DNA from: Candidatus Poribacteria bacterium
GTDB lineage: Bacteria; Poribacteria; WGA-4E; PCPOR2b
Length of the DNA stretch: 64,000 bases
Assembly (NCBI GenBank): GCA_965205075.1
Contig: OZ242036.1
Location: 6,285,354 to 6,349,353 of the forward strand
Reading direction: 5' to 3'
The notes under the pieces are model-generated. The model ran no database searches. It saw nothing but the letters and a program-made list of their open reading frames with translations, and was not told where the DNA came from. Shown piece by piece: positions 37,401-52,125 of the stretch (within the stretch, counting starts at the first letter, position 1; the number at the start of each line of letters is the position of its first letter). Both the position numbers and the translations under genes were made by a program.

Positions 37401-39964
37401 CCTCCAGAGAGCGTCGGTGCTGGTTGCCCCAGCTTTATGTAATCCAAACCGACATCGTGTAGGGTTTGCAAAATCTTTGCAATTTTCGGAACGTTTGCAA
37501 AGTGTTCTAACGCTTCTTGCACGTCCATGTTGAGCACATCGGAAATATTCGCTCCTCGGTATTCGACCTGTAGCGTTTCGTCGTTGTACCGTTTTCCCTG
37601 ACAAACATTGCATTTTACCCAGACATCAGCGATAAAGTGCATTTCAATCCGCTTTGAGCCGTTGCCTTCACAGGCTTCGCATCTACCACCCTTGACATTG
37701 AAACTGAACCGTCCCGGCTTATAACCGCGCAGTTTAGCCTCAGTCATCTCAGCGTAAAGCGCGCGAATCTGATCAAACACTTTGGTGTATGTGGCAGGAT
37801 TCGATCTGGGAGTGCGACCAATTGGTGACTGATCGATATCAATCACTTTATCGATGACTTCGTCAATTGGAGATGAGGATGTACCTTGTGTCTGATCGTT
37901 TGTGGATTTTTCCTCTGTAGTGAACCCCCGTATGAGATCATATTCTCCCGGCTGCGCATGTGCCTTCATCAGATCGCGGGCAAGTGCTTCGTATAGAATA
38001 TCGTTGATGAGTGAACTTTTGCCGGACCCACTTACACCTGTTACGCAGGTAAAAACTCCGAGCGGGATTTGTACATCGATATCTTTGAGGTTGTTGTGAC
38101 GTGCGCCACAGACCTCGATCCATTGATTGCCGGTTGGGCGGCGTTCGGTAGGAATTTCGATCTGTTGTTCCCCACGGAGATATTGTGCCGTTAGGGAGGT
38201 TGAATCCTTGGCAATCTCTTGCGGTGTGCCGATTGCCGCGATCTCACCGCCTTTGATTCCCGGTCCCGGTCCGAAGTCAACGATCATATCTCCCGCCCAC
38301 ATTGTATCTTCATCATGTTCGACCACGATTACGGTGTTGCCTTGGTCTCGGAGATGCTTGAGCGTCGTGAGGAGATGTTGATTATCGCGCGGGTGCAAGC
38401 CAATACTCGGCTCGTCGAGAACGTAAACTACCCCTCGCAAGCCTGCTCCGATTTGGCTGGCTAACCGAATCCGTTGGGACTCTCCACCGGAAAGTGTGGG
38501 TGCGGTTCGATCTAAAGTGATGTAGTGCAACCCAACATTCATCAAGAACCAAAGGCGTCCCTGAATCTCTTTCAGCAAATCAGTCGCAATGAACGCCTCA
38601 CGCTCCGGTAGTTGAAGTTTTTCAAAGAACCTAAAACAATCACCGACTGCCATTGTAACGACATCAAGGATGGATTTTTCGTCGATTGTCACAGCTTTCA
38701 CTTCTGGCTTGAGTCGTGTCCCGTTGCAATCTGGGCATGTACCGGAAACCATGTATTTTCCGTAGTAACGTTTCACAAGTTCTGAGGTTGCTTGGAAATA
38801 CTTCCTTTCTTCAGGCGGAATCACACCCTCAAATGCGGCTTCGTACTTGTAGCGGCGATTGCGGCGGGAGCGATAGACGAAAGGAATCTGCTCTTTTCCA
38901 GTACCATAAAGGATAGCGTGTTGATGCTCCTCACCCAACTGCTCCCACGGTGTATCGAGACTAAAGCCGAAGTGCGCGGCTAAGCTCTCGGCGTGATGTC
39001 GCGTCTGCAACGTACCTAGCTGCCCCCAAAAGACAATCGCCCCTTCTCGAATCGATTGCGTTGGATCAGGAACAACCATATCGGGGTCCATCTTTGTTAG
39101 TGTTCCAATCCCTTTACAGGTCGAGCACATCCCCGCGGGACTGTTGAAGGAGAAATTTCGCGGGGCAGGGGGTTCATAGCTGATGTTGCAGTGCACACAG
39201 GTGTAATCTACCCCGAATAGGAGATCGCCCGCTTCCGGCTCTCCTTTGACGATGCTCACAATCAGACGACCTTCTCCCATGCGCAGCGCGGTTTCAACCG
39301 TTTCGGCAACACGGCTGCGAATATCGGGTTTGATAACGATACGGTCAACGACGATTTCAATGTTATGTCGCTGATTGCGGTCAAGTTGAATTTCGGCGGG
39401 CAGGTCGTAGATCTGTCCATCAATTCGTGCCCGGACAAACCCCGCCTTGAGCGCGTCCTCAAGGTGCTCACGATACTCTCCACGGCGCCCACTGACAATT
39501 GGGGCAAGGATTACGATGCGGGTCTGCGATGGTAGGTTGACGATTTGGTCAATAATTGCTTCTGTGGTTTGGGCACCCACCGGTGCGCCACACTCTAGGC
39601 AGTGCGGCGTCCCCACACGCGCAAATAGGACGCGCAGATAGTCGTAGATCTCTGTAATCGTTGCGACCGTTGAACGTGGGTTATTCCCGCCTGACTTCTG
39701 GTCAATCGAGATGGATGGGGAAAGTCCACCGATGAAATCAACGTCGGGTTTTTCCAGTTGTCCGAGGAATTGGCGGGCGTAGGCGGAAAGGGATTCGATG
39801 TAGCGGCGTTGACCTTCAGCGTAGACTGTATCGAATGCCAGCGATGATTTCCCGGAGCCGCTGACACCGGTGAAAACGATGAGGTTATCTTTGGGGAGTT
39901 TGAGATCGATGTTTCTGAGATTATGTTCGCGTGCGCCGCGGATATCAATGAATTCTTCCGGCAT
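34454..39964 (-). CDS. uvrA: Excinuclease ABC subunit A, tandem-duplicated (double-length) form
   Basis: Two UvrA modules, four GVSGSGKS Walker A and four LSGGE motifs, Zn fingers. Start MPEEF has an AAGGA RBS (alternative ATG at 40012). Confidence 0.95.
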   Translation of the reverse strand: MPEEFIDIRGAREHNLRNIDLKLPKDNLIVFTGVSGSGKSSLAFDTVYAEGQRRYIESLSAYARQFLGQLEKPDVDFIGGLSPSISIDQKSGGNNPRSTVATITEIYDYLRVLFARVGTPHCLECGAPVGAQTTEAIIDQIVNLPSQTRIVILAPIVSGRRGEYREHLEDALKAGFVRARIDGQIYDLPAEIQLDRNQRHNIEIVVDRIVIKPDIRSRVAETVETALRMGEGRLIVSIVKGEPEAGDLLFGVDYTCVHCNISYEPPAPRNFSFNSPAGMCSTCKGIGTLTKMDPDMVVPDPTQSIREGAIVFWGQLGTLQTRHHAESLAAHFGFSLDTPWEQLGEEHQHAILYGTGKEQIPFVYRSRRNRRYKYEAAFEGVIPPEERKYFQATSELVKRYYGKYMVSGTCPDCNGTRLKPEVKAVTIDEKSILDVVTMAVGDCFRFFEKLQLPEREAFIATDLLKEIQGRLWFLMNVGLHYITLDRTAPTLSGGESQRIRLASQIGAGLRGVVYVLDEPSIGLHPRDNQHLLTTLKHLRDQGNTVIVVEHDEDTMWAGDMIVDFGPGPGIKGGEIAAIGTPQEIAKDSTSLTAQYLRGEQQIEIPTERRPTGNQWIEVCGARHNNLKDIDVQIPLGVFTCVTGVSGSGKSSLINDILYEALARDLMKAHAQPGEYDLIRGFTTEEKSTNDQTQGTSSSPIDEVIDKVIDIDQSPIGRTPRSNPATYTKVFDQIRALYAEMTEAKLRGYKPGRFSFNVKGGRCEACEGNGSKRIEMHFIADVWVKCNVCQGKRYNDETLQVEYRGANISDVLNMDVQEALEHFANVPKIAKILQTLHDVGLDYIKLGQPAPTLSGGEAQRIKLARELAKRSTGKTLYILDEPTTGLHFDDVKKLLEVLHQLVNMGNTVIVIEHNLEVVKTADYLIDLGPEGGEEGGYVVATGTPEEVAAVEESYTGIALQSALAPRGLEGSSIDNTQYATHSTPHILQESTASYELTNNNEGEYISVHGAHEHNLKHINVDIPHRKFTTFTGVSGSGKSSLALDTIYAEGQRRYVESLSAYARQFLGQLEKPKVEKIEGLSPAIAIEQKAPSKNPRSTVGTVTEIYDYLRVLYARVGTAHCPQCGSEISVQSVQQIVDKIVALADGARLYVLSPLVLRPNEDYPDAFQRLQRDGYARVEIDGEIHPIDRAPKIGKSIRHDVKIVVDRLALEPDERGRLTEAVETATQQSGGTVAVGVINEGKRTGRRSEITHHVFSEHFACVPCGLSFPELTPRHFSFNSSIGQCPACEGIGTIGHRLYTCQECEGTRIQPLARGVTLGGETIAALTAMPIGRTADFFEHLDLLKHQMEIGGTLLKEIQQRLRFLVDIGLHYLTLDRPAPSLSGGEMQRIRLASQLGSGLTGVTYILDEPSIGLHQRDQERLLNALKGLRDLGNSVLVVEHDLETMLASDHILDFGPRAGKFGGEIVAAGSPTEIQQSEQSLTGGYLTGKLKIDVPPQRRQGKGELLEMIGVRTNNLQNIDVEIPLGTLTCVTGVSGSGKSSLIEETLYPVLVSNLNRTRMRAGEYRSMYGLDCLDKVINIDQQPIGDTPRSNPATYTDLFTKIRYLFADLPDAKVHGFDSRRFSFNQKTGQCETCRGHGFNKVEMHFLADVWVKCETCGGTGYNHETLQIYYKGKNIADILAMTVQEALEHFQSVPTIQRPLQMLYDVGLDYIELGQAATTLSGGESQRVKLARELSKRSTGKTIYIMDEPTTGLHFDDVQKLLTVLNRLVDKGNTIVIIEHNMDVIKSADWIIDLGPEGGAEGGKVITMGTPEEVMATEESHTGRFLRKALTTPA

Positions 39965-39996
39965 AGATTTTCCTTTGGCTGGCGATCTTTCCGTAA

Positions 39997-40230
39997 TTAC
40001 AGACGATTCCATTCATCTAACGAGATTCTATATCCTAATATATTCTCAACTTGTCTCAACAATAAGCGCAGTTGCGACACCGAATATTCTCGGTTATTTG
40101 GGATTGTCAAGTGATGATTTTCATAAGGCATAAAATCGTGTCGTGTACCATGCTGTAGGTTGCCAAATCCGAGTCTCTTTAATTTACGAATAAACAGCCG
40201 CCGCTTACAAGGTCGCCATCTTTGAGCCAT
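39997..40230 (-). CDS. hicA: HicA-family toxin
   Basis: Basic 77-aa protein with KLKRLGF...GTRH..M......TIP pattern. Confidence 0.8.
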   Translation of the reverse strand: MAQRWRPCKRRLFIRKLKRLGFGNLQHGTRHDFMPYENHHLTIPNNREYSVSQLRLLLRQVENILGYRISLDEWNRL

Positions 40231-40594
40231 CCTTCGCCTCATTTAAGTCGATTCCATTAATCACCGGGATAGGGATGTTGCGCTGATGCTTAACAAGAAT
40301 CCAATCATACAATACAGACACCAATTCACGCTGACATTCAGCAAGAGTCTGTCCAAATGCTACAACCCCGGTGCAATCAGGTACTGTTCCGGCGTAGCTT
40401 TTATCTCTTAGCTTTTGATAATCAGCCTTTTCAGTTGCAGCCGCGATGTAGCGGCGACAGGAGGTTTCAAAATCATCAGCAGGTTCACTTGGTAAAAAAG
40501 TGATAATGACTTGAGATTGGGAAATATCCGGAAGTGGTTCCAAAGGGTGTACCACGCCGTTTTCGTAAACTCCTCTGACTGCGAATAAGCTCAT
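40205..40594 (-). CDS. hicB: HicB-family antitoxin with N-terminal DUF104/AF2212-like domain
   Basis: N-term RGVYENGVVHPLEP; C-term Y.GTVPDCTGVVAFGQTLAEC...IPIP; AAGGAG RBS. Confidence 0.75.
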   Translation of the reverse strand: MSLFAVRGVYENGVVHPLEPLPDISQSQVIITFLPSEPADDFETSCRRYIAAATEKADYQKLRDKSYAGTVPDCTGVVAFGQTLAECQRELVSVLYDWILVKHQRNIPIPVINGIDLNEAKDGSKMATL

Positions 40595-40640
40595 GGTATA
40601 GAATCTCCTTTCGATTCGGATTAAGCAATCTATGAGTTCC

Positions 40641-40669
40641 ATTTTACCATAGATTTCAGGCGTCGGCAA
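40641..40669 (-). promoter_or_regulatory. sigma70 promoter proximal to hicB
   Basis: TTGCCG-17 nt-TAAAAT with extended TG on the minus strand. Confidence 0.5.
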
Positions 40670-40812: not shown

Positions 40813-40846
40813 AAAAAAGCCTTGTCCCGATTATACGAGACAAGGC
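40813..40846 (-). terminator. Intrinsic terminator downstream of lptD
   Basis: Minus strand GCCTTGTCTCG-loop-CGGGACAAGGC-TTTTTT. Confidence 0.75.
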
Positions 40847-40984
40847 GTTATATTATCGCGGATCTCAGTAATCGTTGTATCCAAATTGTTGATTGCTGTG
40901 GGAGAAGAGAGGGCATATCCCAATCAGCGCGAAGAGGTGCGACTAAGAAGAGGATTAGTCGCTTTTCGCGCTGTGGGTTTGGCG

Positions 40985-43900
40985 TTAGAAGTAAGATCGT
41001 CCAAGTGAGTTTCCGACACCGAAGGCGTCGTAAGGTACTCCAGCTGGCAAGGTACGGAAGCCCCATGTATCCGTTGTGGCGTCATAGCCAACCCCGACTG
41101 AAGCAGCGGGTTCTGCAATCAGATTAATCTGAAAGGTGAAGTCTTGTCGCACATTATCGTAGGGGGGTTCCCGCTTAATCCCGATGCGATGCCATCTAAT
41201 CGTCATGTTCCAATTATGCAAGTTGCGTCGTAGCGTTACACTCTGCGAGTAGAACTGTTTTTCGATCCAGTCGTAATTAACACTAAGATTCAATTCAAAC
41301 AATCGATTTGGACGAAATCGAAAACTGCCCGTGAGACTTCGAGAGGCGCGTTGCGTTCTTTTTGTAAAGGCGTTTCCCAACGTTATATTCCATAAGTCGC
41401 GGCGATAACTGACGTTGGACCGGAAGCCAACCTGTTTGAATCGCTTTCCATCGAGGCTCGATTCATTGGGGTCAACTGTAGATCTAAACGTGATATTCAG
41501 GTTTCGGCTCGCTAGCGGAACTATTGTCATTCTACTTTCAATCGGTACATATCGACGTTCACCCAACGCCTCAAATTTGGTAAAATCCGCCGCTATTCGT
41601 GTATAAAACTGAAGCACGCGGAGCGCGGATCTGCTGCCTCGTGTTTTAACTTCAATACTGGTATCGAAGTTATAGGCGAGGTTCTTTCTTTCAAAGAAGT
41701 AGACACTGGGACCAAAAGGGTAAAGTTGGGGAGCATCTTCTCTTTCGACGGGCGGTGCGTAATCAAATGTGACTCTTGAGTTGATTTGGTGGCGCATCCG
41801 ACGGGCTCCCGGAATGTAACTGATGTCATAAATCCGAAATAGCAGATTGCTGGCAGACAACCGTGTGCTGTATATCCCGCGGAAAATGTTTGGGTTTCCT
41901 TCTCGGTCTTTGTCATGCCAGATGAGGTTTGTGTCGAGATCCGCGTCGAATCGCAATTCTCGATTCGGAATTATTTGCAGCACCGTCTGTTTACGGAGAT
42001 CAAAACCGAGATCCATAGTTTGCAAGTAGACATTGTCTTCGTCTCGAAACCGTTCGCGGAAAAAGTTACCGAGATTTACGTCTAAATCAAAACTGGTGCT
42101 CTCAAGCGTTGGAAAAGCAAACATCGAAAGAATAGGGAGATCGGTGTTCAGCGCATCAGCAACTTTGGTGAGTCTAGAATTGATAGTTTCGAAAACAGGC
42201 AGCCTGTCTAAACGCATGCGTGAGAGCGAGAGTTCGAGTGCTGGTAACTTTTGCAAGTTTGTTGTTCCTTCACCGGTGAGGCTTAATGTATGATTAACTT
42301 GTAGTCGTCCCAAGAACTCTCCGATTGTCTTGCTCGAATATCTTAAGTTTCCCTCCTCGTCCCTATCTTCAGCATCCAGTGCAGAATAGGAGGTTCCCCA
42401 TGTAAGCACACCAAAGGAGTTAACCGTAGATTCCTCGATTCCAAACCCCTCTTCTTCAAAATGCTTTGCTCGCCACGCCACGCGTCCCACAAAACCCACA
42501 GGCCGTCGTTGCCTCGCTCGGTTGTCCCATGGGGTGTAGAAAGTGTGCCGGTGCCCCCACCGCATATTCCATCGCCTTCCAGTTTTGAACGGCCTTCGGC
42601 GATCGAAAGAAAACTCATCGTTGGTATAGAAGTAAAGGTCTCCCCTATAAGTACGCCTTTTATCGATTTTAATCAGACGATATCCTTTACCGGTCCTGAT
42701 TACCCCGGTATGCTCACCGCTATAGAGTCGTTGGGCTTGTGTGTAGAGTACGGTCGGCATCTCCCATCGCCCGCGGTAATCGTATTTTTGGTAGACCTGC
42801 CCCTTCTCTGCGTCTGCTTCTTCCGATGGATTTGCTGTCCCATCGTCCTCAACGATATCGGGATTCGGAGGAACTTGTGTATCATTCTCTTCTGCTCCTA
42901 TATTGCTATTCCCGTCCCCCGTTTCCTCGTGCCCGTTTATCTCTTTTAGTTGTTCAATTTCACTCTCTTCTGTCGTTGCAGCTTTCCCAAATTCGGCTTC
43001 CATTACCGCCCACTCCGCTTCAAATTGACGTGCAATTTCTTCAAAGGTTGGGGTCAGTTCCTTTTCGATTAATTCAAGGACATAGGCACCTTGGTCAGTA
43101 TATATGGGCCGAGTTACTGCTCCGGGGGCTTCTAGTCGGGTTACAGGGTGTTTCCAACGTCGATCCATTTCATTTAACAGAAATCCTGTGCCTTCATTAG
43201 CTTCAGAAAGGTCCACTCCCTCATATTGCTCTGCTAATTCTTCGAGAACCTCTCCTGCCTCTGCACGTTCGTGAATTTCCTGAGCAGTCGTCCGGATTGC
43301 GCTCTTGGTCTCCTCGCTTGGTTCTATCGCTACGTCTATTCGACGAATCTGGAGTTCTTGCTGACCATATACATCGAGTACACGGTCAACCTTTAGAATA
43401 TGAAAACCGGATTCCGTTCTCAGAATCGGCGTAACTTCGCCCGGTTGCAGTTGAAAAACCGCCTCTTCGAGGATTGGATCTAGCCGAAGTTCATCTTCCT
43501 CATCGCGCTCTCCACGTACCAGAAAACCTATATCGCCGCCCTGATAGCGCGTGTCCTGATCGGTCGAGTCAGCTTGTGCAATCGCTGCAAAGTCTGCGTC
43601 CGGTTCCTGCAGTCGGGCATGGATATCTTCCACCTTTTCACGAGCAGCGGTGATATCTTCTTCAGAGATCTGATATTCTAGGAAGAGTTGCCGCAGCTTA
43701 TACCGGTCATACTCGCCCTCCAACCGATCCGCTAACTCCTGTGCTTTTTCCTCTAGTTTCGTCCGCTCACTTGGCGTTACATCAGGAGGTATGGGCACAA
43801 TAATTTCTTGGAACTTCACATCGTTTACCCGGTATTTTCCGTCGGCACCGAGCCCACCGCCTCGACGGGCAGAGTGGTCAAACAGCAGTGCACCGTCATA

Positions 43901-44953
43901 TCGAAATCGGCGTGCAAGCGGCAAAATTACGCTGAGGAATACCCCCTGATGGCTACTTGTTCCGACTTTGACGATTACCTTGGCGACTTTGTCTTCTTGG
44001 CGCAGATCGCGACGGTAGGCGGGAAAATAGAAGAGGGGAACACCGCCAACTCTCAGCACAATATTCGTGGCAATCAACTCTTTATTTATCCTGACGATAA
44101 TCTTCGATGCGCTGAAGTAATAATGGGGATGCTTGAGAGAGCATGTTGTCAAAGCCCCACCACGGATGTAGGATTCATCATCTTCGGTCTTAAAGATTTC
44201 AGTGCCGCGGTAGTACCATGGATCACTAAAACTGAATCCTTCACGAATGATCCCTTTTTTTGTTTCAATGTTATAAAGGAGTTCGTTCGCATAGGTTTCT
44301 TCCTTTCCGACGAGCAGATGCACGTTTCCCGCTGCCCGCATTATATTTTCATCGAAATCCGCCCAGATATGGTCTGCATAGAGCACAACCTCGTCATATT
44401 TGATCAATCCGTTACCGTGAATCTGAATCGTGTTTCCGTGAAAGGTGAGATTGTCGCCTTTAGCAAGAAGGTCCCCTGGTTCAGGTAACATATTCTCTGG
44501 ATCGAGTTTTCGACTGACTTGAGTGGGTTCTTCAGGTGTAGGTTCTTCAGATGTGGGTGAATCTGTCGCTGGTGGGGTTTCTGACGTTTCTTCAGGAGGT
44601 TCTGTGGAGGACTCTCCATCGTTGGGGACTTCGGGAGCAGGCGAATCTTCAACTGGCGAAGTTTCTGATGACGCCTCAGCCTGTTCGTCCGAAGCCTGTT
44701 CCTCGGTCGTAGACACAGGGTCGGTTTGCGCGGCTAATTCGCCCATAGGCAAAATTAAGTTAAGCGTGAGAATCGTAAGGGATAGGACGTAAAATGTAAA
44801 ACGGGCTGCACAGGGAGCAAGACGTAAAACGTAAAGTCGGTCCCCCATAGAGCAATTAAGGAATCGGAAACAAGGAGGTTTGGACAACCGGGTAGTTGAT
44901 TTCTTCCCGTTGCCTGCTATTTTCTGCCATTTCTGTGTTTCCCTCCTTGCCAT
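40985..44953 (-). CDS. lptD: LPS-assembly protein LptD with inserted parvulin (PPIase) domains
   Basis: OstA/LptA jellyroll, TTC..PHY, VPLFYFP, barrel strands, C-terminal LRRNLHNW..FTFQINL. Insert carries DFAAIAQADSTD..GGDIG and RTESGFHILKV. Confidence 0.8.
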   Translation of the reverse strand: MARRETQKWQKIAGNGKKSTTRLSKPPCFRFLNCSMGDRLYVLRLAPCAARFTFYVLSLTILTLNLILPMGELAAQTDPVSTTEEQASDEQAEASSETSPVEDSPAPEVPNDGESSTEPPEETSETPPATDSPTSEEPTPEEPTQVSRKLDPENMLPEPGDLLAKGDNLTFHGNTIQIHGNGLIKYDEVVLYADHIWADFDENIMRAAGNVHLLVGKEETYANELLYNIETKKGIIREGFSFSDPWYYRGTEIFKTEDDESYIRGGALTTCSLKHPHYYFSASKIIVRINKELIATNIVLRVGGVPLFYFPAYRRDLRQEDKVAKVIVKVGTSSHQGVFLSVILPLARRFRYDGALLFDHSARRGGGLGADGKYRVNDVKFQEIIVPIPPDVTPSERTKLEEKAQELADRLEGEYDRYKLRQLFLEYQISEEDITAAREKVEDIHARLQEPDADFAAIAQADSTDQDTRYQGGDIGFLVRGERDEEDELRLDPILEEAVFQLQPGEVTPILRTESGFHILKVDRVLDVYGQQELQIRRIDVAIEPSEETKSAIRTTAQEIHERAEAGEVLEELAEQYEGVDLSEANEGTGFLLNEMDRRWKHPVTRLEAPGAVTRPIYTDQGAYVLELIEKELTPTFEEIARQFEAEWAVMEAEFGKAATTEESEIEQLKEINGHEETGDGNSNIGAEENDTQVPPNPDIVEDDGTANPSEEADAEKGQVYQKYDYRGRWEMPTVLYTQAQRLYSGEHTGVIRTGKGYRLIKIDKRRTYRGDLYFYTNDEFSFDRRRPFKTGRRWNMRWGHRHTFYTPWDNRARQRRPVGFVGRVAWRAKHFEEEGFGIEESTVNSFGVLTWGTSYSALDAEDRDEEGNLRYSSKTIGEFLGRLQVNHTLSLTGEGTTNLQKLPALELSLSRMRLDRLPVFETINSRLTKVADALNTDLPILSMFAFPTLESTSFDLDVNLGNFFRERFRDEDNVYLQTMDLGFDLRKQTVLQIIPNRELRFDADLDTNLIWHDKDREGNPNIFRGIYSTRLSASNLLFRIYDISYIPGARRMRHQINSRVTFDYAPPVEREDAPQLYPFGPSVYFFERKNLAYNFDTSIEVKTRGSRSALRVLQFYTRIAADFTKFEALGERRYVPIESRMTIVPLASRNLNITFRSTVDPNESSLDGKRFKQVGFRSNVSYRRDLWNITLGNAFTKRTQRASRSLTGSFRFRPNRLFELNLSVNYDWIEKQFYSQSVTLRRNLHNWNMTIRWHRIGIKREPPYDNVRQDFTFQINLIAEPAASVGVGYDATTDTWGFRTLPAGVPYDAFGVGNSLGRSYF

Positions 44954-45082
44954 ACTACCTTTCCTCTGCTACACTGCAAAATTGCCTAATCGAGAGCAGT
45001 AGAACTTGTTTGAGAATCGAATCCCTCTGCTTCAGTCTCCGCTGTCAGTCAAGCGACTCTGATAGGAAGGAACAACTTACTC

Positions 45083-46381
45083 TTATTTAAGTTCTTCTTT
45101 GATTTTTATAAAGGAATTTTCCTTGAGCAGATCCGTGTAAAGTTGCCATTCTTCTTGGAATTTTTGCTGACGCAGCATCATTCGGATCTGGTCTTTTTCA
45201 GCGTCACTCAATTCAGGGGCAGCACGACTATCGATCTTGAAAATGTGTACGCCGTACGTCGTTTTGAGGGGCGTGCTATACGCTCCGATGGAAAGTCCTT
45301 CGATAATTTTTCGGGTATCAGGATTTAACTCGCTGAGTGAACGAATCCCGAGATCGCCACTGTTAGCTTTCGTCTGTGCGTCGTCGGAGTATTGTTGTGC
45401 AAGCGCGTTGAAATCTTCACCTTGATCTAACCGCTGCAAGAGACTATCTGCGCGTTCATAGGCAGCGTCAATCGCCTGTTCACTCGGCTTCAAACTGACA
45501 ACGAGATGGCGAAACGCTATGGTCTGATCATCTTTACCCTCAACTTTGAAAAGATAAAATCCATCATTGCCTTCAACCGGTTCACTGATCTCGCCGGTAT
45601 TGAGCCCTGAAAGTGTATTGCGAAAGGTAGCCGAGAGGTTCTCCATCTCTGCAATTGGCAGTTCGTTTAATACTCCAATCCCTGCTTGTCTATGCTCATC
45701 ATCAGCATAGCGTTGCGCGAGTGTCTCAAAATCTTTTCCAGTCTCTAATTCCTGAAAAATTGTATCGATCTTCTCAAGGGCTAGTTTGCGATCTGCCTCG
45801 CTTGGCTTGAAAGCAACGAAGATGTGTCGAAGGTGAACCCTATCTGTTTTAGTTGGCAATTGTGAGCGGTTTTCTTCAAAAAACTTCTGTATATCTGAGC
45901 CTCGAATTTGGAGTCTAGGGAGGATACGCTGCATTACAAGTCGTTCCGCCATCAGGTTACGTTTAGCTTGTTCACGGAAAGACATCAGGGTGTAACCTTC
46001 CTTTTTTAACGCTTGAGCAAGCTCCTCTTCGGTCTCAATCTTGTACTGATCTTTGAAGTTTTGCAGATACTGCTCTACTTCAGCCTCTGTGATTTCGATT
46101 TTTAGCGTTAATGCTGTTTCGACGAGAAGCATTTGGCGGATCAACTGATCGAGAAGATCCGCCCGTTCCTGCTCCGCTTTTTGCATCGCTTCGCTCTCAC
46201 TGAACCGGTAGATTTGCTGCAATTCCAATGCTTTTTGCTTCACAACGCTGTCGAGTTCCCATTTGGTGATCACGTCTTCGTTGACATAAGCGATGATTTG
46301 ATCAAACCTTCGCGCAGCAACGGGATTGATTCCAAAATGAATGATCAATAGAATCAGGGCGCAGAAACGCAATATCTTCAT
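45083..46381 (-). CDS. surA: SurA-like chaperone/PPIase
   Basis: Signal peptide, IIAYVNEDVIT SurA N-domain, two parvulin domains (FNALAQQYSDD..SGDLG, TTYGVHIFK). Confidence 0.85.
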   Translation of the reverse strand: MKILRFCALILLIIHFGINPVAARRFDQIIAYVNEDVITKWELDSVVKQKALELQQIYRFSESEAMQKAEQERADLLDQLIRQMLLVETALTLKIEITEAEVEQYLQNFKDQYKIETEEELAQALKKEGYTLMSFREQAKRNLMAERLVMQRILPRLQIRGSDIQKFFEENRSQLPTKTDRVHLRHIFVAFKPSEADRKLALEKIDTIFQELETGKDFETLAQRYADDEHRQAGIGVLNELPIAEMENLSATFRNTLSGLNTGEISEPVEGNDGFYLFKVEGKDDQTIAFRHLVVSLKPSEQAIDAAYERADSLLQRLDQGEDFNALAQQYSDDAQTKANSGDLGIRSLSELNPDTRKIIEGLSIGAYSTPLKTTYGVHIFKIDSRAAPELSDAEKDQIRMMLRQQKFQEEWQLYTDLLKENSFIKIKEELK

Positions 46382-46417: not shown

Positions 46418-47413
46418 TTACGGTTCTGTTTCAGGTTCGGCGGGAGCGTCACTATCATCAGACGATTCGCTTTCTGCTTCCTCTTCGACCTCCACCGGTG
46501 TATCGGGGATTCGATCTGAAAAAGTCTTGACCTCCGCCTGTTCGTGGAGTCGGATTAGCCAATCGGTCATAAGTTCTTCACGCTTCTGATTTTCTACGTG
46601 TCTTTCCACATTGCGTCGTACACTGTTTTCGTCAAGTGTCTGTTGGCGTTCCGGCTGGACTTCCTCCTTACGAAAGATTAGGTAATAGTTTTCTTCATCA
46701 AGTTCGATATGGAGAATCTCCTCGTTCATTTGACCGACTTCCAACTCAAACGCCGCGTCGCTAAAAGGTTTTGCGCGCCGTGCATACATGGTGTTATCGA
46801 AAAAATCGGTGTCACCGGGGATTTCGTTATTTGATCCCGGACCGACTAATTCCCCATTTGCGGATAGCTCTGCAGCTAGGTCAGCGATGGCTTCCCCATC
46901 TTTGATTCGTTGAAAGACTTCCTTTGCTCGCTCCTCATCTTGGATGGTTATGCAGGTCAGTCGTACCTTTTCCGGCACGACATAATCCGCTTTATTTTCT
47001 TCATAATAGAGCTGGTAATCTTCCTCGGTCAGTTTAAGTTTCTGATCTACTTCGACTTCTGTGATCTTGTCGACGAGCAGTTCGTGGTAATAGTCCTGCA
47101 CTTTTTTCAGAACCCCAGGATCCTCATCAAGTTTCCGATCCTTGGCAAGGCAAAGTATAAGACGACTCTCCGCCATTAGGTTCATATATTCTTTATATCC
47201 ATCCTCTGCTTCTTGATACTGTGCCTGTTTATAGGTAGGAAGTTCACTTATCTCCTGTAGCATCTCTTCGAGCGTGATATAGTGTTTTCCATTCCATTCA
47301 AATTCAGCAATCACAGTGCCTTCGGCTCCGGCTTTTCCGCCACAACCATTCAACGAAACGCTAACGGCAACGGCACCGATTAAGATAAAACTAATAATTC
47401 CCAATAATTTCAC
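46418..47413 (-). CDS. PpiC/PrsA-type parvulin foldase, probable lipoprotein
   Basis: Lipobox-like LNGC, YYEENK..Y..PEKVR, PGDTDFF, FSDAAFEL. Confidence 0.8.
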   Translation of the reverse strand: MKLLGIISFILIGAVAVSVSLNGCGGKAGAEGTVIAEFEWNGKHYITLEEMLQEISELPTYKQAQYQEAEDGYKEYMNLMAESRLILCLAKDRKLDEDPGVLKKVQDYYHELLVDKITEVEVDQKLKLTEEDYQLYYEENKADYVVPEKVRLTCITIQDEERAKEVFQRIKDGEAIADLAAELSANGELVGPGSNNEIPGDTDFFDNTMYARRAKPFSDAAFELEVGQMNEEILHIELDEENYYLIFRKEEVQPERQQTLDENSVRRNVERHVENQKREELMTDWLIRLHEQAEVKTFSDRIPDTPVEVEEEAESESSDDSDAPAEPETEP

Positions 47414-47517
47414 AGTTATACCTCCTTAAATTTTGCGTGATATATAGTTGTTCGATTGTTGCAATTATCTGTCAGCCAATTTCTGAACGCGATAGTTCCA
47501 TCCAATGTTGCGTTCCA

Positions 47518-48480
47518 CTACTGCTCCGATTTTTCATTTTCCGGATCTTCTTCCTCTTCGGGCATCACGGGTGGTGGGAGCAGTTCTGGATACGTTTTGA
47601 GTTTGCCCTCGACAGTAAGCACTTCCAACCATTCTAGGATACGCTTCCGCTTCATTTCACGTTTTAGGGGATACTCAAGTCGAGGTTTAACCTCTTCAAA
47701 GGTCTGTTGGCGTTCTGGCTGATGCTCTTCCTTTCGGAAAATCATGTAATAGATATCCTCTTCGACCTCCTGCTCAAAAACTTCTTCGGTCATTTCGCCA
47801 ACTTCCATTGCAAAAACCGTGTCTACAAATGCTTGGGCTCGTGCAGAAACGTCTCGAGCAAAGTAGCCGGTGTCACCGGGATCCCCCGGATTTGAACCAG
47901 GTCCTGTCAATAGGTCTTTTTCCGCAAGTTCTTTCACTGCATCAAAGATATCCTTGCCGGCTTGAATTTCCTCCAATGTTGTTTGTGCGAGTTCCTTATC
48001 CAACAGCGTGATGGAGGTTGCTCGCACTTTTTCCTCCTCCACATAGGTATCTTTATTTTCTTCGTAATACTGCCGAAGTGTTTCCTCGTTGATGATGATT
48101 TTTTCGTCAACCTCAACTTCGGTTAAGCGTTCAACCATCAGTTGATGCTTATAATCGTCCCCTTTTTTAAGGAACTCCTCATTTTTATCGAATCCTGCTT
48201 CAGCAGCTGCGAGGAGTATTAGTTTTTGGTTGATCAAATCTTCCAGAAATATGAGTTTACCCGCTTTGGACTGATAGCCTTTCTGTTTATGTGCCGATAA
48301 CTCTGCTATTTCCGCATTAAGTGTTGCGAGCGAAATTTCGTGTATGCCGTTCCATTCGTACCGAGCCACAATAATTTGGCTGTCATCCATTGGTCCGGCA
48401 ACATCTTGCGATTCCGATGAATCGGGACTACTCAAACCGATCGCCACAGTCACGACGAAAATTATCAATATTTTTTTCAT
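47518..48480 (-). CDS. PpiC/PrsA-type parvulin foldase (paralogue of neighbour)
   Basis: Signal peptide MKKILII, YYEENKD.Y.EEEKVRA, PGDTGYF, TFEEVK. Confidence 0.8.
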   Translation of the reverse strand: MKKILIIFVVTVAIGLSSPDSSESQDVAGPMDDSQIIVARYEWNGIHEISLATLNAEIAELSAHKQKGYQSKAGKLIFLEDLINQKLILLAAAEAGFDKNEEFLKKGDDYKHQLMVERLTEVEVDEKIIINEETLRQYYEENKDTYVEEEKVRATSITLLDKELAQTTLEEIQAGKDIFDAVKELAEKDLLTGPGSNPGDPGDTGYFARDVSARAQAFVDTVFAMEVGEMTEEVFEQEVEEDIYYMIFRKEEHQPERQQTFEEVKPRLEYPLKREMKRKRILEWLEVLTVEGKLKTYPELLPPPVMPEEEEDPENEKSEQ

Positions 48481-48609
48481 TGTGTATATCGTTCCTTTCT
48501 GTAAGTGGATTGCAAAGACACCGTCTTCGCAGTTAAGGGTGGATTCATATTGAAAAGGTACGTATGCAAATACGTATGCTTCACAAGCACCGTTAATAGA
48601 CATCACATT

Positions 48610-51600: not shown

Positions 51601-52125
51601 CACTTTGTCGGGGGCAATCTCATCGCCGATGCGGAGGGTTAGAAAGGCAGATTCTACAATCGATTGGGGCAGGATCCTATGCATCAATGCTTGGATCGAT
51701 GTAACAATGAACGTGCGGTCTCCCCCGATTGCATCGGGATTTGAAGCAACCTGCAACAGTTGATACAAACAGATCAGCCGTTCTGCAACAACATTTTTTG
51801 TTGGGGGAATACCGTCATAAAGGAAATTCTGCCATTGTGGAAAGAGATGGGGTTCTTCAAAATGATAGGCGGGCAGATCTTGGACGATTTTCTCAGCTTC
51901 GTGCTGCGTGGGCACGACGACGAGGAAGGATTTGTCAGCGAAATCGGCTGCCAATGCACTGAGCAGGTAAGCAGTAGACGCGCCATGCAAGCCCCGCAAC
52001 CAAGGTTCGGGGCGATTTATTTGCTGATTTATTGAGGTTTGGGCACACTTCGACCCTGAAAACTGAGCGGTCAGGGTTTCAACAAGCGATTGATAGGTAT
52101 TTGACTGCTGCAGAAGATCTATCAC
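48610..52125 (-). CDS. mfd: Transcription-repair coupling factor
   Basis: RGDILDVYP, CarD/RID VVHVSHGIG, GDVGYGKTEVA, DEEHRFG, QLRGRVGR, RDLEIRG. Confidence 0.97.
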   Translation of the reverse strand: MIDLLQQSNTYQSLVETLTAQFSGSKCAQTSINQQINRPEPWLRGLHGASTAYLLSALAADFADKSFLVVVPTQHEAEKIVQDLPAYHFEEPHLFPQWQNFLYDGIPPTKNVVAERLICLYQLLQVASNPDAIGGDRTFIVTSIQALMHRILPQSIVESAFLTLRIGDEIAPDKVVEQLVHNGYQRVDLVEVKGELARRGDILDVYPLTTDAPIRIEFFGDEIDAIRLFDPASQRSVTDGIDDEPEAITLCPVREIILSPKTLDLWKTRAETLIHNNESPKYRNAVNEITHRLETERNPEGLEALLPMLYEETSTLMDYLSSQTIVLMIEPAWMAREATQLIENTKDLYERKLAFDQFMVSPDETFVPFEGVISALQAYPFVRTSLTPPALNTEDPVEEIPFGMRPLGLPRSNYRMIMDQIKGWTDEGYFVNFFCDNPKSADRLHNILADRDLPATQTAVNIGSISEGFINETLKLITLSEDELFGREHRRHRKTSFKEGTPILSLIDLKEKDYVVHVSHGIGRYAGIRRLDIDGKPQDFLALDYADAGRLYVPTYQIDLVQKYIGGQEESRIRLDKIGGTSWERVKAKAKASIEQMAEELLELYAIRESREGYAFSTDTPWQKEFEVLFPYEETPDQQKAIEEVKRDMERLRPMDRLICGDVGYGKTEVALRAAFKSVMAGKQVALLAPTTILTLQHFNTFQQRFAPFPVQVEMLNRFRTDKEAKKVVEGLANGTVDIVIGTHALLSKNIKFRELGLLVVDEEHRFGVKHKEKIKQMKQTVDVLTLTATPIPRTLHMSLVGIRDFSVINTPPENRLPIETYVMEYNPDVVRDAILREMERGGQIFFVHNRVQSIASIAATIQDLVPHARVCMAHGQMPERQLEKVMMEFINHKYDVLVCTMIIESGVDIPTVNTILINRADAFGLAQLYQLRGRVGRDQYQAYGYLFYPQGWAITEGAQKRLRVIEEFTDLGSGFKIALRDLEIRGTGNILGSEQHGHIIAVGYDMYCELLEEAVQKLKGEEIVETVKTRINLPIEAYLPDEYVPDSRQKVTLYKKIAALETVVDRKELEEEMVDRYGKIPEPVEMLLEIADLKQLSQQLGVDGIAAGEESIKITFDEAKTSLDPHKLIRLIEQDRRISITPPARMTIRLKGLEGKALLLELKHILGKLM
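51722..51753 (-). repeat. In-frame palindromic micro-element inside mfd (QVASNPDAIGG)
   Basis: CAGGTTGCTTCAAATCCCGATGCAATCGGGGG. Confidence 0.6.

What the first reader, a model, noticed from the sequence alone, without database searches (positions are those of the whole stretch)
40985..44953. LptD with ~390 aa of SurA-like parvulin domains inserted inside the barrel
Seen: after the jellyroll and the first barrel strands (..DHSARRGGGLGADGKY) the chain enters an insert (about 43831 to 42650) and resumes barrel-like sequence at RGDLYFY..RWNMRWGHRHTF. The insert has two parvulin units resembling those of the adjacent SurA (LRQLFLEYQISEEDITAAREK; IRRIDVAIEPSEETKSA). These are apparently nested in a third, split parvulin (VKFQEIIV..; TFEEIARQF; GEHTGVIRTGKGYRLIKID). 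Known: LptD folding strongly depends on SurA, and by analogy to E. coli LptD this position should be a periplasmic turn. Inference: an LPS translocon carrying its own chaperone module, an architecture I do not recognise as described.
Basis: partly seen in the sequence, partly recalled or inferred. Interest (0 to 1): 0.85.

Follow-up and report, generated by a model that had tools for sequence, protein, structure and literature searches.

The report
Poribacterial LptD with built-in parvulin arm
The only lipopolysaccharide-exporting outer-membrane channel (LptD) of this sponge-associated bacterial phylum carries three chaperone-type (parvulin) domains spliced into a turn of its barrel that probably faces the periplasm, an arrangement that does not seem to have been described.

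Summary
Window 40985-44953 (-) is one 1322-aa ORF. It has an LptD-type jellyroll (res ~156-320), four barrel strands, a ~390-aa insert (res ~379-766) and then the remaining ~22 barrel strands. Both flanks align colinearly to one profile of canonical LptD_2 proteins (hhalign E 2.6e-45). That profile hits no other ORF in the closed 6.66-Mb genome, which also encodes LptE, an LptA-like protein, LptF/G and LpxC.

The insert holds two Pfam-significant parvulins, colinear with P1-P2 of the adjacent SurA. They are nested between helix 1 and helix 2 of a third, split parvulin. The edge strands of that third parvulin run on from barrel strands 4 and 5 (AlphaFold, pLDDT ~90).

It is not a chimera. The protein matched in 151 of 151 genomes sampled from the phylum (Candidatus Poribacteria), and independent contigs bridge both junctions.

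No unit keeps both parvulin histidines (0 of 53 relatives), so a binding or holdase role is more likely than catalysis. What the arm does is untested: cis-chaperone (my favourite, ~0.35-0.4), rigid brace, or tethered trans-chaperone.

Public records call these proteins 'hypothetical' or 'peptidylprolyl isomerase'. Six literature searches found no description. I rate it a new variant of a known kind.

The parts
40985..44953 (-). Whole ORF, 1322 aa plus stop: LptD with a parvulin insert
44729..44953 (-). N-terminal leader (res 1-75) with a hydrophobic stretch at res ~52-71, the probable signal peptide. The true start codon is uncertain (M1 or M36).
   Evidence: Read from the translation. The N-termini of homologues are not conserved. 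Inference.
44489..44728 (-). Low-complexity Glu/Pro/Ser/Thr-rich linker (res 76-155) ahead of the jellyroll
   Evidence: Composition E 21%, P 17%, S 16%, T 15%. Contigs of another run skip 150 and 96 bases here, so its length varies between strains.
43994..44488 (-). OstA/LptD-type beta-jellyroll (res 156-320)
   Evidence: NCBIfam LptD models. Klebsiella LptD 5iv9_A, E 0.0012. hhalign. The canonical LptD_2 profile matches here at E 1.5e-36. AlphaFold strands at pLDDT 61-83.
43820..43993 (-). Barrel strands 1-4 (res 321-378). Invariant Pro345 aligns with the strand-2 proline of enterobacterial LptD.
   Evidence: Residue alignment to 5iv9_A. P231/P246 lie on strands 1 and 2 (PMC6164715 figure legend). 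Family invariants. Low confidence in the full-length model; strand 4 is confident in the insert model.
43715..43819 (-). Outer (host) parvulin, N fragment: strand 1 running on from barrel strand 4, plus helix 1 (res 379-413)
   Evidence: AlphaFold strand 368-387 and helix 394-411, pLDDT ~89-95. HMM positions 1-37 in relatives. Not significant alone in the window protein (iE 4.3).
43367..43714 (-). Nested parvulin P1 (res 414-529)
   Evidence: Pfam Rotamase best stretch 430-523. Own HMM iE 1.8e-43. Aligns with SurA P1.
43052..43366 (-). Nested parvulin P2 (res 530-634)
   Evidence: Second Pfam Rotamase stretch. Own HMM iE 2.4e-36. Aligns with SurA P2.
42986..43051 (-). Outer parvulin helix 2 (res 635-656)
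   Evidence: AlphaFold helix 637-661. In relatives without the linker this region is part of the match to HMM positions 41-105.
42770..42985 (-). Acidic disordered linker inside the outer parvulin (res 657-728)
   Evidence: pLDDT below 50. Only 25% mean identity to homologues. Absent in P0122.
42656..42769 (-). Outer parvulin, C fragment (res 729-766). Its last strand runs on into barrel strand 5.
   Evidence: HMM positions 67-104, iE 4e-4. AlphaFold strand 757-781 continuous, pLDDT ~89-93.
41120..42655 (-). Barrel strands 5-26 (res 767-1278)
   Evidence: 22 DSSP strands. The canonical LptD_2 profile matches here at E 4.8e-37. Foldseek top hits are all LptD.
42098..42208 (-). Helix-bearing turn between barrel strands 10 and 11 (res 916-952). 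In deep-branching relatives this site holds a second, circularly permuted parvulin.
   Evidence: DSSP helix 919-934. P0129/P0172 and loci L005, L008, L009 match HMM 23/32-106 and then HMM 2/5-40 at this site.
40988..41119 (-). Family-specific C-terminal tail (res 1279-1322) ending in Phe, the most conserved segment
   Evidence: 84% mean identity. Extends beyond the end of the canonical LptD_2 consensus, by eye. Low model confidence.
40819..40846 (-). Terminator-like hairpin (11 pairs, 7 G-C, then a T run) about 140 nt after the stop codon
   Evidence: consensus match only
45083..46381 (-). Adjacent upstream gene: complete SurA (432 aa) with SurA_N, P1, P2 and C-tail
   Evidence: Pfam and NCBIfam. 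A SurA-like ORF is also upstream in L002, L005, L008, L009 and L010.
46418..48606 (-). Two further periplasmic Rotamase_2 (PpiD-like) genes upstream of surA, on the same strand

Best explanation
SHOWN. This is the genome's only LptD, the outer-membrane lipopolysaccharide translocon. It has an OstA-type jellyroll and a barrel of about 26 strands. A ~390-aa module is spliced in after barrel strand 4. The module is a host parvulin whose first and last strands run on from barrel strands 4 and 5. Its helix-1/helix-2 loop carries two further complete parvulins that are colinear with P1-P2 of SurA. The arrangement is conserved across the whole phylum, and the insert is about as conserved as the barrel.

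INFERRED (about 0.85). Four strands precede the insert and an even number follow it, so the module hangs in the periplasm. It sits a few strands from the lateral gate and the jellyroll.

INFERRED (about 0.6). The module is not a conventional prolyl isomerase. No unit keeps both active-site histidines. P1 does keep a conserved cleft-like set of residues, which fits a peptide-binding (holdase-type) role.

COMMITTED MECHANISM (about 0.35-0.4). The arm acts in cis during biogenesis. LptD is the client most dependent on SurA in E. coli. In the model I recall, barrel assembly by BAM proceeds from the C-terminus. The arm would then hold the jellyroll and strands 1-4 in a competent state, or dock the nascent protein to SurA or BAM, until the barrel closes around LptE. 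In the mature translocon it stays as a periplasmic appendage, and LPS export itself works as in other LptD/LptE complexes.
For: Identity as LptD.
- hhalign to 12 canonical LptD_2 proteins: probability 100, E 2.6e-45, colinear across both flanks.
- That profile hits only this ORF in the complete single-contig genome, in two pieces (E 1.5e-36 and 4.8e-37).
- The full-length model's top 12 Foldseek ranks are all LptD chains (best 4q35_A, E 4.4e-16).
- LptE, an LptA-like OstA protein, LptF and LptG, and LpxC are each present.

Insert anatomy.
- Pfam Rotamase at 103 bits.
- Insert-only AlphaFold model: mean pLDDT 81.5, pTM 0.63, continuous strands 368-387 and 757-781.
- Its Foldseek hits are SurA-like PPIase 8hm4 (2.8e-11), PpiD (1.9e-7) and SurA (6e-6).
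- Complementary HMM fragments 1-37 and 41-105 flank P1-P2.

Topology.
- Strands 1-3 align residue by residue to Klebsiella LptD, including the strand-2 proline.
- P231 and P246 lie on strands 1 and 2, and the barrel has 26 strands (passages of PMC6164715).
- 22 strands plus 2 short ones follow the insert.

Conservation.
- The protein matched in 151 of 151 phylum genomes.
- Mean identity is 72% for the outer N fragment and 66% for P1, against 64-67% for the barrel.

Non-catalytic reading.
- The first-histidine position is Glu in 53/53 (outer unit), Gln in 40/53 (P1) and Arg in 50/53 (P2).
- Both histidines occur in one unit in 0 of 53. The neighbouring SurA P2 keeps both.

Link to SurA.
- surA is adjacent, with no terminator-like site between the two genes and one after lptD.
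- The synteny recurs in deep-branching clades.
Against: - No experiment or computation here shows chaperone activity or any binding partner.
- The insert lacks the SurA N/C core domain: there is no SurA_N Pfam hit in the ORF. As I recall, that core carries most of SurA's chaperone activity, and the parvulins are dispensable in E. coli.
- A complete SurA and two PpiD-like proteins are still encoded next door, so no chaperone has been replaced.
- The predicted join to the barrel is rigid, made of continuous strands. That looks more like a fixed arm than a flexible tether.
- Pfam LptD (PF04453) and LptD_2 (PF19838) do not score on this protein at all.
- Barrel strands 1-3 are modelled at pLDDT below 50. 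The count of four strands therefore rests on sequence alignment.
- No model coordinates or PAE were available, so the position of the arm relative to the jellyroll is geometric inference.
Confidence: 0.4

Rival explanations
1. Structural arm. The three catalytically degenerate parvulins form a rigid periplasmic strut fixed to barrel strands 4 and 5. The strut braces or orients the jellyroll and the LptA bridge, or limits opening of the lateral gate. In enterobacterial LptD that job is done partly by the two interdomain disulfides.
For: - Continuous high-confidence strands link the barrel to the outer parvulin and link P1 to P2; the insert alone has pTM 0.63.
- The dual histidines are lost in every unit.
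- The mature window protein has a single cysteine (C271). Most canonical LptD_2 relatives examined keep the jellyroll cysteine plus a C-terminal barrel cysteine.
- In E. coli the disulfides are essential for functional assembly and for LptA binding, and they restrict the gate (passages of PMC6164715).
- The insertion point is only three strands from strand 1.
Against: - Deep-branching relatives (P0129, P0172) keep a cysteine in both the jellyroll and the barrel end and still have the insert. The insert therefore did not arise as a replacement for the disulfides.
- P1 keeps many invariant residues typical of a ligand cleft, which a pure spacer would not need.
- No contact between the arm and the jellyroll has been shown.
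Confidence: 0.25
2. Tethered trans-acting chaperone. The parvulin arm captures other unfolded outer-membrane proteins, or docks SurA or BAM, at the LPS insertion site. This would couple protein and LPS insertion into the outer membrane.
For: - The P1-P2 tandem is SurA-like.
- The gene cluster holds SurA and two PpiD-like chaperones.
- The arm is strongly conserved across the phylum.
Against: - There is no evidence of any partner.
- The SurA core domain is absent.
- As I recall, LptD is a low-abundance protein in E. coli, so it would be a poor general chaperone platform.
Confidence: 0.15
3. Active enzyme. P1, which keeps the second histidine, the Asp/His position and a conserved cleft, is a working prolyl isomerase. 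It would act on LptD's own prolines or on neighbouring proteins.
For: - The second histidine of P1 is present in 45 of 53 relatives, and many P1 cleft-region residues are invariant.
- As I recall, mutagenesis of Pin1 showed that the histidine pair is not strictly required for parvulin catalysis.
Against: - The first histidine of P1 is replaced by Gln in 40 of 53 relatives.
- The 4 relatives that have His there lack the second histidine.
- P2 and the outer unit are more degenerate still.
Confidence: 0.1
4. Artefact. The ORF is an assembly chimera, a frameshift fusion of lptD with a surA-like gene, or two separate proteins.
For: None found. The only hint is that Pfam's LptD models do not score on it.
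Against: - The genome is a single 6.66-Mb contig at 99.95% completeness.
- The architecture was found in 151 of 151 phylum genomes, many of them single-contig, with listed open frames of about 1230-1450 aa apart from genes cut at contig ends (G128, 450-665 aa).
- 120 of 120 listed protein clusters are 1081-1385 aa long with Rotamase.
- A contig from another study spans 42563-45100 across both junctions, and metatranscriptome contigs cover nearly the whole gene.
- The barrel is split by the insert, so no simple end-to-end fusion could produce it.
Confidence: 0.01

Closest known systems
LptD (OstA/Imp) of Proteobacteria, e.g. Shigella/E. coli/Klebsiella LptD in LptDE structures 4q35, 4rhb, 5iv9
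   Same: - N-terminal beta-jellyroll followed by a large barrel of about 26 strands.
- The strand-2 proline is conserved.
- An LptE partner gene and the rest of the Lpt and Lpx pathway are present.
- It is the sole copy in the genome.
   Different: - A ~390-aa triple-parvulin module sits at the turn between strands 4 and 5.
- No interdomain disulfide is possible, because the mature protein has one cysteine.
- An ~80-aa acidic/Pro-rich linker precedes the jellyroll.
- There is a conserved 44-aa C-terminal tail.
- Sequence is so diverged that PF04453 and PF19838 do not score.
Pfam LptD_2 (PF19838) proteins of other phyla (669-805 aa; P0138, P0143, P0145-P0148, P0151, P0157, P0159)
   Same: They are the closest insert-free relatives. 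Both flanks align to their profile (E 2.6e-45).
   Different: They have no Rotamase domain, and only a short turn where the poribacterial protein has its insert. Most keep the jellyroll/barrel cysteine pair.
SurA (E. coli 1m5y; the window's own SurA at 45083-46381)
   Same: - A tandem of two parvulins (P1-P2) nested inside another, split domain.
- 27% identity, colinear over 215 aa.
- Periplasmic location, and a functional link to LptD biogenesis in E. coli.
   Different: - There is no SurA N/C chaperone core. The host domain is a third parvulin, not the SurA core.
- It is covalently built into a membrane barrel.
- Neither parvulin keeps both histidines, whereas the neighbouring SurA P2 does.
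PpiD / PrsA (parvulin inserted in a chaperone domain; 8zht, 4wo7)
   Same: Domain-in-domain architecture with a parvulin. From memory, the parvulin is catalytically inactive in PpiD but active in Bacillus PrsA. Both are Foldseek hits.
   Different: In those proteins the parvulin is the guest. Here a parvulin is also the host. They are anchored by an inner-membrane helix or a lipid, not by an outer-membrane barrel.
Usher PapC/FimD plug domain (recalled from memory, not tested here)
   Same: A precedent for a folded soluble domain encoded inside the barrel sequence, between two strands of an outer-membrane barrel.
   Different: The usher plug is an unrelated fold that gates the pore lumen. Here the guest is a parvulin array that probably lies outside the lumen.

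Membership tests
LptD (LPS-assembly outer-membrane protein) | N-terminal OstA/LptA-type beta-jellyroll | tested here: met
   NCBIfam LptD equivalogs align to res 165-389 (E 7.5e-6 and 1.7e-5). Klebsiella LptD 5iv9_A, E 0.0012. The canonical LptD_2 profile matches at E 1.5e-36. AlphaFold shows all-beta strands over res 162-316.
LptD (LPS-assembly outer-membrane protein) | C-terminal barrel of about 26 strands, homologous to the LptD barrel | tested here: met
   hhalign probability 100, E 2.6e-45. Profile match E 4.8e-37. Four strands by alignment plus 22 modelled strands. Foldseek top 12 ranks are all LptD. Model quality is only moderate (pLDDT 64).
LptD (LPS-assembly outer-membrane protein) | Scores above the curated thresholds of Pfam PF04453/PF19838 or the NCBIfam LptD equivalogs | tested here: not met
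   No Pfam LptD or LptD_2 hit on the protein or anywhere in the genome. NCBIfam gives 24 bits against a cut-off of 683. Only 2 of the 120 listed homologues carry PF19838. Membership therefore rests on profile-profile and fold evidence.
LptD (LPS-assembly outer-membrane protein) | Genomic context of a working Lpt pathway (LptE partner, LptA, LptF/G, lipid A synthesis) and no alternative LptD | tested here: met
   LptE at 35.1 bits against a cut-off of 23. One OstA/LptA-like ORF. LptF and LptG. LpxC. The canonical LptD_2 profile finds only this ORF.
LptD (LPS-assembly outer-membrane protein) | Two interdomain disulfides (an enterobacterial feature needed for function there) | tested here: not met
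   The only cysteine after the leader is C271. The importance of the disulfides comes from passages of PMC6164715. I do not take this as defining for the family at large.
LptD (LPS-assembly outer-membrane protein) | LPS translocation activity in complex with LptE | not testable with these tools
   Needs reconstitution or heterologous complementation.
Parvulin (PpiC-type PPIase, Pfam PF00639) | Scores above the Pfam gathering threshold | tested here: met
   103.2 bits against a cut-off of 21.7, in 2 stretches.
Parvulin (PpiC-type PPIase, Pfam PF00639) | Parvulin fold | tested here: met
   Insert-only model at pLDDT 81.5. Foldseek hits are SurA-like PPIase, PpiD, SurA, PrsA and Pin1. For the split outer unit the evidence is the complementary HMM fragments and the order of secondary-structure elements; coordinates could not be inspected.
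Parvulin (PpiC-type PPIase, Pfam PF00639) | Dual active-site histidines (Pin1 H59/H157 equivalents; residue numbers recalled from memory) | tested here: not met
   Both histidines occur together in 0 of 53 relatives, in any of the three units.
Parvulin (PpiC-type PPIase, Pfam PF00639) | Prolyl cis/trans isomerase activity | not testable with these tools
   Needs an enzyme assay.
SurA | SurA N-terminal chaperone core completed by a C-terminal tail, with P1-P2 inserted | tested here: not met
   No SurA_N, SurA_N_2 or SurA_N_3 hit in the LptD ORF, whereas the neighbouring SurA has all three. Only the P1-P2 tandem is SurA-like.

The most novel reading that the evidence does not exclude
Poribacteria have replaced the enterobacterial disulfide-based checkpoint of LptD maturation with a built-in, non-catalytic parvulin arm. 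The arm is both a cis-chaperone or BAM/SurA docking device during assembly and a rigid brace of the jellyroll next to the lateral gate afterwards. It would be an outer-membrane barrel that carries its own assembly factor. The module was built by repeated parvulin capture, using the same permissive helix-1/helix-2 site for nesting and for circular permutation.
Probability: 0.25. Interest if true: 0.8.

Novelty: new variant of a known kind. Interest (0 to 1): 0.62.

Why it matters
LptD is essential, is an antibiotic target, and is the classic 'difficult' client of SurA and BAM. A natural LptD with SurA-type domains covalently built into a barrel turn is a ready-made experiment on two questions: what parvulin domains contribute to outer-membrane biogenesis, and how much periplasmic cargo a barrel turn can carry through BAM.

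It also matters for annotation. Every named poribacterial homologue I saw is labelled 'hypothetical protein', 'peptidylprolyl isomerase' or 'parvulin-like peptidyl-prolyl isomerase', and Pfam's LptD models miss them. Automated reconstructions would therefore score this phylum as lacking LptD.

The domain anatomy is an unusual case of domain evolution: a parvulin nested in a parvulin nested in a barrel, plus a circularly permuted parvulin at a second turn in deep-branching lineages.

Tried and rejected
- Interaction prediction. I asked whether the jellyroll (res 156-320) binds the insert (res 378-765). The result was 'no answer' (score 0.00, controls not run). I use it neither for nor against binding.
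- Parvulin tree. A tree of 24 units (LptD P1/P2 and SurA P1/P2 from 7 loci; L006 and L008 dropped as duplicates of L011 and L005) has unresolved deep nodes. LptD-P1 groups with three SurA-P1 units at 91/89, which is not a starred branch. The idea that P1-P2 was copied en bloc from the neighbouring surA stays a conjecture, supported only by the colinear BLAST match.
- Pfam LptD and LptD_2 models against the protein and the genome gave no hit. I take this as divergence, not absence.
- A profile of the family against PDB sequences returned only parvulins among 59 hits and no LptD. LptD appeared only with the N flank alone and by fold.
- The full-length AlphaFold model is mediocre (pLDDT 64.3, pTM 0.41), and barrel strands 1-3 are modelled at pLDDT below 50. 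No coordinates or PAE were returned. I could not measure where the arm sits or confirm the outer parvulin's strand pairing directly.
- A scan of species-representative genomes with P0129 returned a single locus. The ESM Atlas gave the protein's own two clusters and then ordinary LptD clusters at 0.82-0.83, which are leads only. Neither shows whether LptD-parvulin fusions exist outside this phylum.
- Chimera and frameshift readings, and an extracellular location for the insert, were considered and rejected for the reasons given in the report.
- Supplementary files of papers were not consulted.

Full report
**1. What is there**

Window 40985-44953 (minus strand) is one uninterrupted ORF of 1322 aa. 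Read from the N-terminus it has these parts.
- A leader with a hydrophobic stretch (res ~52-71).
- An ~80-residue Glu/Pro/Ser/Thr-rich linker.
- An all-beta domain (res ~156-320).
- About 60 residues of strand-like sequence.
- A ~390-residue insert.
- About 510 residues of long amphipathic strands.
- A 44-residue C-terminal tail that ends in Phe.

Pfam sees only the insert: Rotamase PF00639, 103.2 bits against a cut-off of 21.7, in two stretches, plus a sub-threshold OstA_2 hit at res 173-238.

**2. Do the flanks form one LptD?**

Yes, but this shows only at profile and fold level.

N flank:
- The NCBIfam LptD equivalogs align res 165-368 and 165-389 to model positions 62-270 and 63-289 (E 7.5e-6 and 1.7e-5). 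The scores are far below the curated cut-offs.
- phmmer of res 156-390 against PDB sequences gives Klebsiella LptD 5iv9_A as best hit (E 0.0012, res 167-368 to chain 41-246).

C flank:
- Res 765-1322, searched against 1.84 billion representatives, found only 39 proteins.
- I scanned 19 of them with Pfam. Twelve full-size proteins (609-1294 aa) and three fragments carry LptD_2 (E 6e-5 to 3e-66) and no Rotamase. Four (P0122, P0126, P0129, P0140) carry Rotamase like the window protein.

Both flanks together:
- A 36-sequence alignment of the family (A1) aligns to a 12-sequence alignment of those canonical LptD_2 proteins (A2) with probability 100, E 2.6e-45, over 658 columns. The alignment is colinear across both flanks.
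- The A2 profile, searched over the window's own genome, hits exactly two places. Both lie in this ORF: profile positions 59-227 (E 1.5e-36) and 433-702 (E 4.8e-37).
- AlphaFold on res 156-1322 gave a mediocre model (mean pLDDT 64.3, pTM 0.41). Even so, its top 12 Foldseek ranks in the PDB are all LptD chains (best 4q35_A, E 4.4e-16), with alignments of about 1200 columns that span the jellyroll and the barrel.

Against membership:
- Pfam PF04453 and PF19838 do not score on the protein or anywhere in the genome.
- A family profile against PDB sequences returns only parvulins.

**3. Is it the working LptD?**

The genome is a single 6.66-Mb contig at 99.95% completeness. It encodes the following.
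- One LptE (35.1 bits, cut-off 23).
- One OstA/LptA-like ORF.
- LptF and LptG.
- LpxC.
- No other LptD candidate.

The simplest reading is that this is the organism's sole LPS translocon.

**4. The insert**

- BLASTP of res 375-768 against the adjacent SurA (45083-46381) gives one colinear match: 27% identity over 215 aa, E 6e-14. It runs through SurA P1 and P2.
- An insert-only AlphaFold model (res 360-800, 53-row alignment) is good: mean pLDDT 81.5, pTM 0.63, with 259 of 441 residues at 90 or above.
- The order of elements in that model, in full-length numbering, is:
  - one continuous strand 368-387 (barrel strand 4 running on into the first strand of a parvulin);
  - helix 394-411;
  - a complete parvulin P1 (417-528);
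  - a complete parvulin P2 (531-632);
  - helix 637-661;
  - a disordered acidic stretch (~659-717);
  - strand 721-727, helix 734-742 and strand 752-754;
  - one continuous strand 757-781 (the last parvulin strand running on into barrel strand 5).
- Foldseek hits of this model are a SurA-like PPIase (8hm4, 2.8e-11), PpiD (8zht, 1.9e-7), SurA (1m5y, 6e-6), then PrsA, Pin1 and other parvulins.

**5. The third, split parvulin**

I built an HMM from 108 P1, P2 and SurA-P1/P2 segments only, leaving out the outer fragments. I searched family members with it and open frames of seven loci plus the window.
- Besides P1 and P2 it finds two complementary pieces.
- HMM positions 1-37 match immediately before P1. 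This is significant in P0172 (iE 1.4e-4), weak in P0129 and P0126 (0.012 and 0.019), and not significant in the window protein (4.3).
- HMM positions 41-105 match immediately after P2: P0172 1.3e-12, P0122 7.4e-12, P0129 8e-11, P0126 9e-9, and loci L005-L009 and L011 between 1e-9 and 4e-11.
- In the window protein only positions 67-104 survive (res 729-766, iE 4e-4). The helix-2-to-strand-2 region has been replaced by the acidic linker. That linker is absent in P0122 and is the least conserved part (25% identity).

This is what a parvulin split between helix 1 and helix 2, with P1-P2 as guests, should look like. It agrees with the order of elements in the model. I could not inspect coordinates, so the strand pairing of the outer unit is inferred.

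**6. Topology**

- The residue alignment to Klebsiella LptD runs through the stretch after the jellyroll. It places the family-invariant Pro345 on the second of two prolines that lie 15 residues apart.
- A review's figure legend assigns those prolines (P231, P246) to barrel strands 1 and 2 and gives 26 strands for the barrel (passages of PMC6164715).
- On that register res ~322-334, 337-349 and 351-365 are strands 1-3, and 367-378 is strand 4.
- After the insert the model has 22 strands between 767 and 1278, plus two short low-confidence strands in the tail. That makes 4 + 22 = 26.
- An even number of strands on either side puts the insert on the same side as the jellyroll, which is the periplasm. 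It lies only three strands from the strand-1/strand-26 gate.
- This is inference from strand counting. Strands 1-3 are poorly modelled (pLDDT below 50).

**7. Is it an artefact?**

No.
- The 120 protein clusters listed (of 343 hits) are 1081-1385 aa long, and all 120 carry Rotamase domains. Many sit on multi-megabase contigs.
- The protein matched in 151 of 151 genomes sampled from the phylum (131 of 131 of high quality, 22 of 22 genera, 9 families). Listed open frames are about 1230-1450 aa, apart from genes cut at contig ends such as G128 (450 and 665 aa).
- In the five most distant genomes, both halves lie in one open frame of 1120-1319 aa in four. The fifth (900 contigs) has the gene broken across two contigs.
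- Names on public records, where present, are Candidatus Poribacteria.
- Laid contigs:
  - one run holds the whole stretch with no differences, and may be the source;
  - a sponge-metagenome run from another study has contigs 42563-45100 and 40900-42592, the first of which bridges both junctions;
  - a metatranscriptomic library has contigs covering 40985-42913, 42926-43221, 43219-43751 and 43830-45100. That is presence in an RNA library, not proof of transcription.

**8. Selection on the insert**

Mean identity of 35 homologues to the window protein, by region:

| Region | Mean identity |
|---|---|
| Jellyroll | 73% |
| Barrel strands 1-4 | 71% |
| Outer N fragment | 72% |
| P1 | 66% |
| P2 | 55% |
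| Outer C fragment | 55% |
| Barrel | 64-67% |
| Acidic linker | 25% |
| C-terminal tail | 84% |

The folded parts of the insert are about as constrained as the translocon itself.

**9. Catalytic residues**

I aligned the three units with the neighbouring SurA domains and counted over 53 relatives.

| Unit | First-histidine position | Second-histidine position |
|---|---|---|
| Outer | Glu 53/53 | Arg 45/53 |
| P1 | Gln 40/53 (His 4/53) | His 45/53 |
| P2 | Arg 50/53 | Tyr 43/53 |

- No relative has both histidines in any one unit (0 of 53 for each of the three).
- The neighbouring SurA P2 has both. SurA P1 has only the first. From memory, this mirrors E. coli SurA, where P2 is active and P1 is not.
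- The identification of these positions with the Pin1 H59/H157 pair is also from memory.
- P1 keeps many invariant residues, so a conserved ligand cleft is likely.

**10. Context**

The gene order on the minus strand is:
- mfd (48610-52125);
- two Rotamase_2 (PpiD-like) genes;
- surA;
- this lptD;
- a strong terminator-like hairpin at 40846-40819;
- a HicB-like gene and a small ORF;
- a 1852-aa UvrA-like ORF.

A SurA-like ORF lies immediately upstream of lptD also in L002, L005, L008, L009 and L010.

**11. Variation within the phylum**

- Deep-branching members (P0129, P0172; loci L005, L008, L009) carry a further parvulin at a second turn. That turn corresponds to the helix-bearing turn between strands 10 and 11 of the window protein (res 916-952).
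- The extra parvulin matches the HMM as positions 23/32-106 followed by positions 2/5-40. It is therefore circularly permuted at the same helix-1/helix-2 boundary where the outer unit is split.
- These deep members keep a cysteine in the jellyroll and one near the barrel end. The window protein and its closer relatives have lost the barrel cysteine, so the mature window protein has one cysteine (C271). Most canonical LptD_2 relatives examined keep the pair.
- In E. coli the interdomain disulfides are essential for functional assembly and for LptA binding, and they restrict the gate (passages of PMC6164715).

**12. How it probably works**

Shown:
- It is the phylum's LptD.
- It carries a conserved, folded array of three parvulins at the turn between strands 4 and 5.

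Inferred:
- The array is periplasmic (about 0.85).
- It is not a conventional isomerase (about 0.6).

Beyond that I see three models.
- (a) Cis-acting holdase or docking arm during LptD's own BAM-dependent assembly. This is my preferred model, at about 0.35-0.4. The reasons are that LptD is the archetypal SurA-dependent client (passages of PMC3747590), the guests are SurA-like, surA is syntenic, and P1 keeps a conserved cleft.
- (b) Rigid brace of the jellyroll or gate (about 0.25). It is favoured by the continuous-strand connections and the loss of the disulfide pair. It is weakened because the deep clade has both the insert and the cysteines.
- (c) Tethered trans-chaperone or BAM-Lpt coupler (about 0.15).

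An active P1 isomerase (about 0.1) overlaps with (a) and (c). Nothing I could run separates these models.

**13. Novelty**

Six full-text searches found no paper describing such a fusion:
- LptD + parvulin: 23 papers. By title and abstract start of the 15 listed, all are about free SurA.
- Poribacteria + LptD: 0 papers.
- LptD + 'PPIase domain' + fusion: 6 papers, none relevant by title.
- Poribacteria + outer membrane + lipopolysaccharide: 12 papers, none relevant by title.
- LptD + rotamase: 0 papers.
- Poribacteriota + LptD: 0 papers.

Subscription-only papers and supplements were not searched. Where sources name the homologues, they call them hypothetical protein, peptidylprolyl isomerase or parvulin-like peptidyl-prolyl isomerase. 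I rate it a new variant of a known kind: a known machine (LptD) and a known domain (parvulin) in an undescribed, phylum-wide nested architecture.

Noticed in passing
window 34454-40012 (-): The 1852-aa ORF reads as two complete UvrA-like halves fused in tandem. The ATP-binding and signature-like stretches recur from about residue 930. This was seen only in the translation; I ran no family scan.
   Followed up: no
window 39997-40669 (-): A HicB-like gene (UPF0150 PF21748, E 3.7e-21; 154 aa) overlaps a following 81-aa ORF that has no Pfam hit. It may be a small toxin-antitoxin pair wedged between lptD and the UvrA-like gene.
   Followed up: partly
window 40988-41119 (-), res 1279-1322: A C-terminal tail ending in Phe is the most conserved segment of the protein (84% mean identity). 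By eye, it extends beyond the end of the canonical LptD_2 consensus. It is modelled at low confidence, and its role is unknown (lumen plug, LptE contact or beta-signal).
   Followed up: partly
P0129, P0172; loci L005, L008, L009; equivalent to window 42098-42208: Deep-branching Poribacteria carry a second parvulin at another barrel turn, between strands 10 and 11. It is circularly permuted at the helix-1/helix-2 boundary (HMM 23/32-106 followed by HMM 2/5-40). The window protein has only a helix at that site.
   Followed up: yes
window protein C271; relatives: The main poribacterial clade has lost the barrel-end cysteine. In canonical LptD_2 proteins, and in P0129 and P0172, that cysteine accompanies the jellyroll cysteine. 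The interdomain disulfide that E. coli LptD needs therefore cannot form here.
   Followed up: partly
window 44429-44718 (-), res ~79-175: Contigs of run X4 skip 150 and 96 bases here, and run X15 lacks 3 bases at 44594. The low-complexity acidic/Pro-rich N-terminal linker therefore varies in length between strains.
   Followed up: no
P0155 (1294 aa) and P0154 (1024 aa), other lineages: These canonical LptD_2 proteins have roughly 500 and 260 residues without any Pfam assignment between the LptD_N jellyroll and the barrel. Large inserts in LptD may not be unique to Poribacteria.
   Followed up: no
window 46418-48606 (-) and 48610-52125 (-): Two paralogous Rotamase_2 (PpiD-like) genes and mfd lie directly upstream of surA-lptD on the same strand. 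Together they form a periplasmic-chaperone gene cluster.
   Followed up: partly
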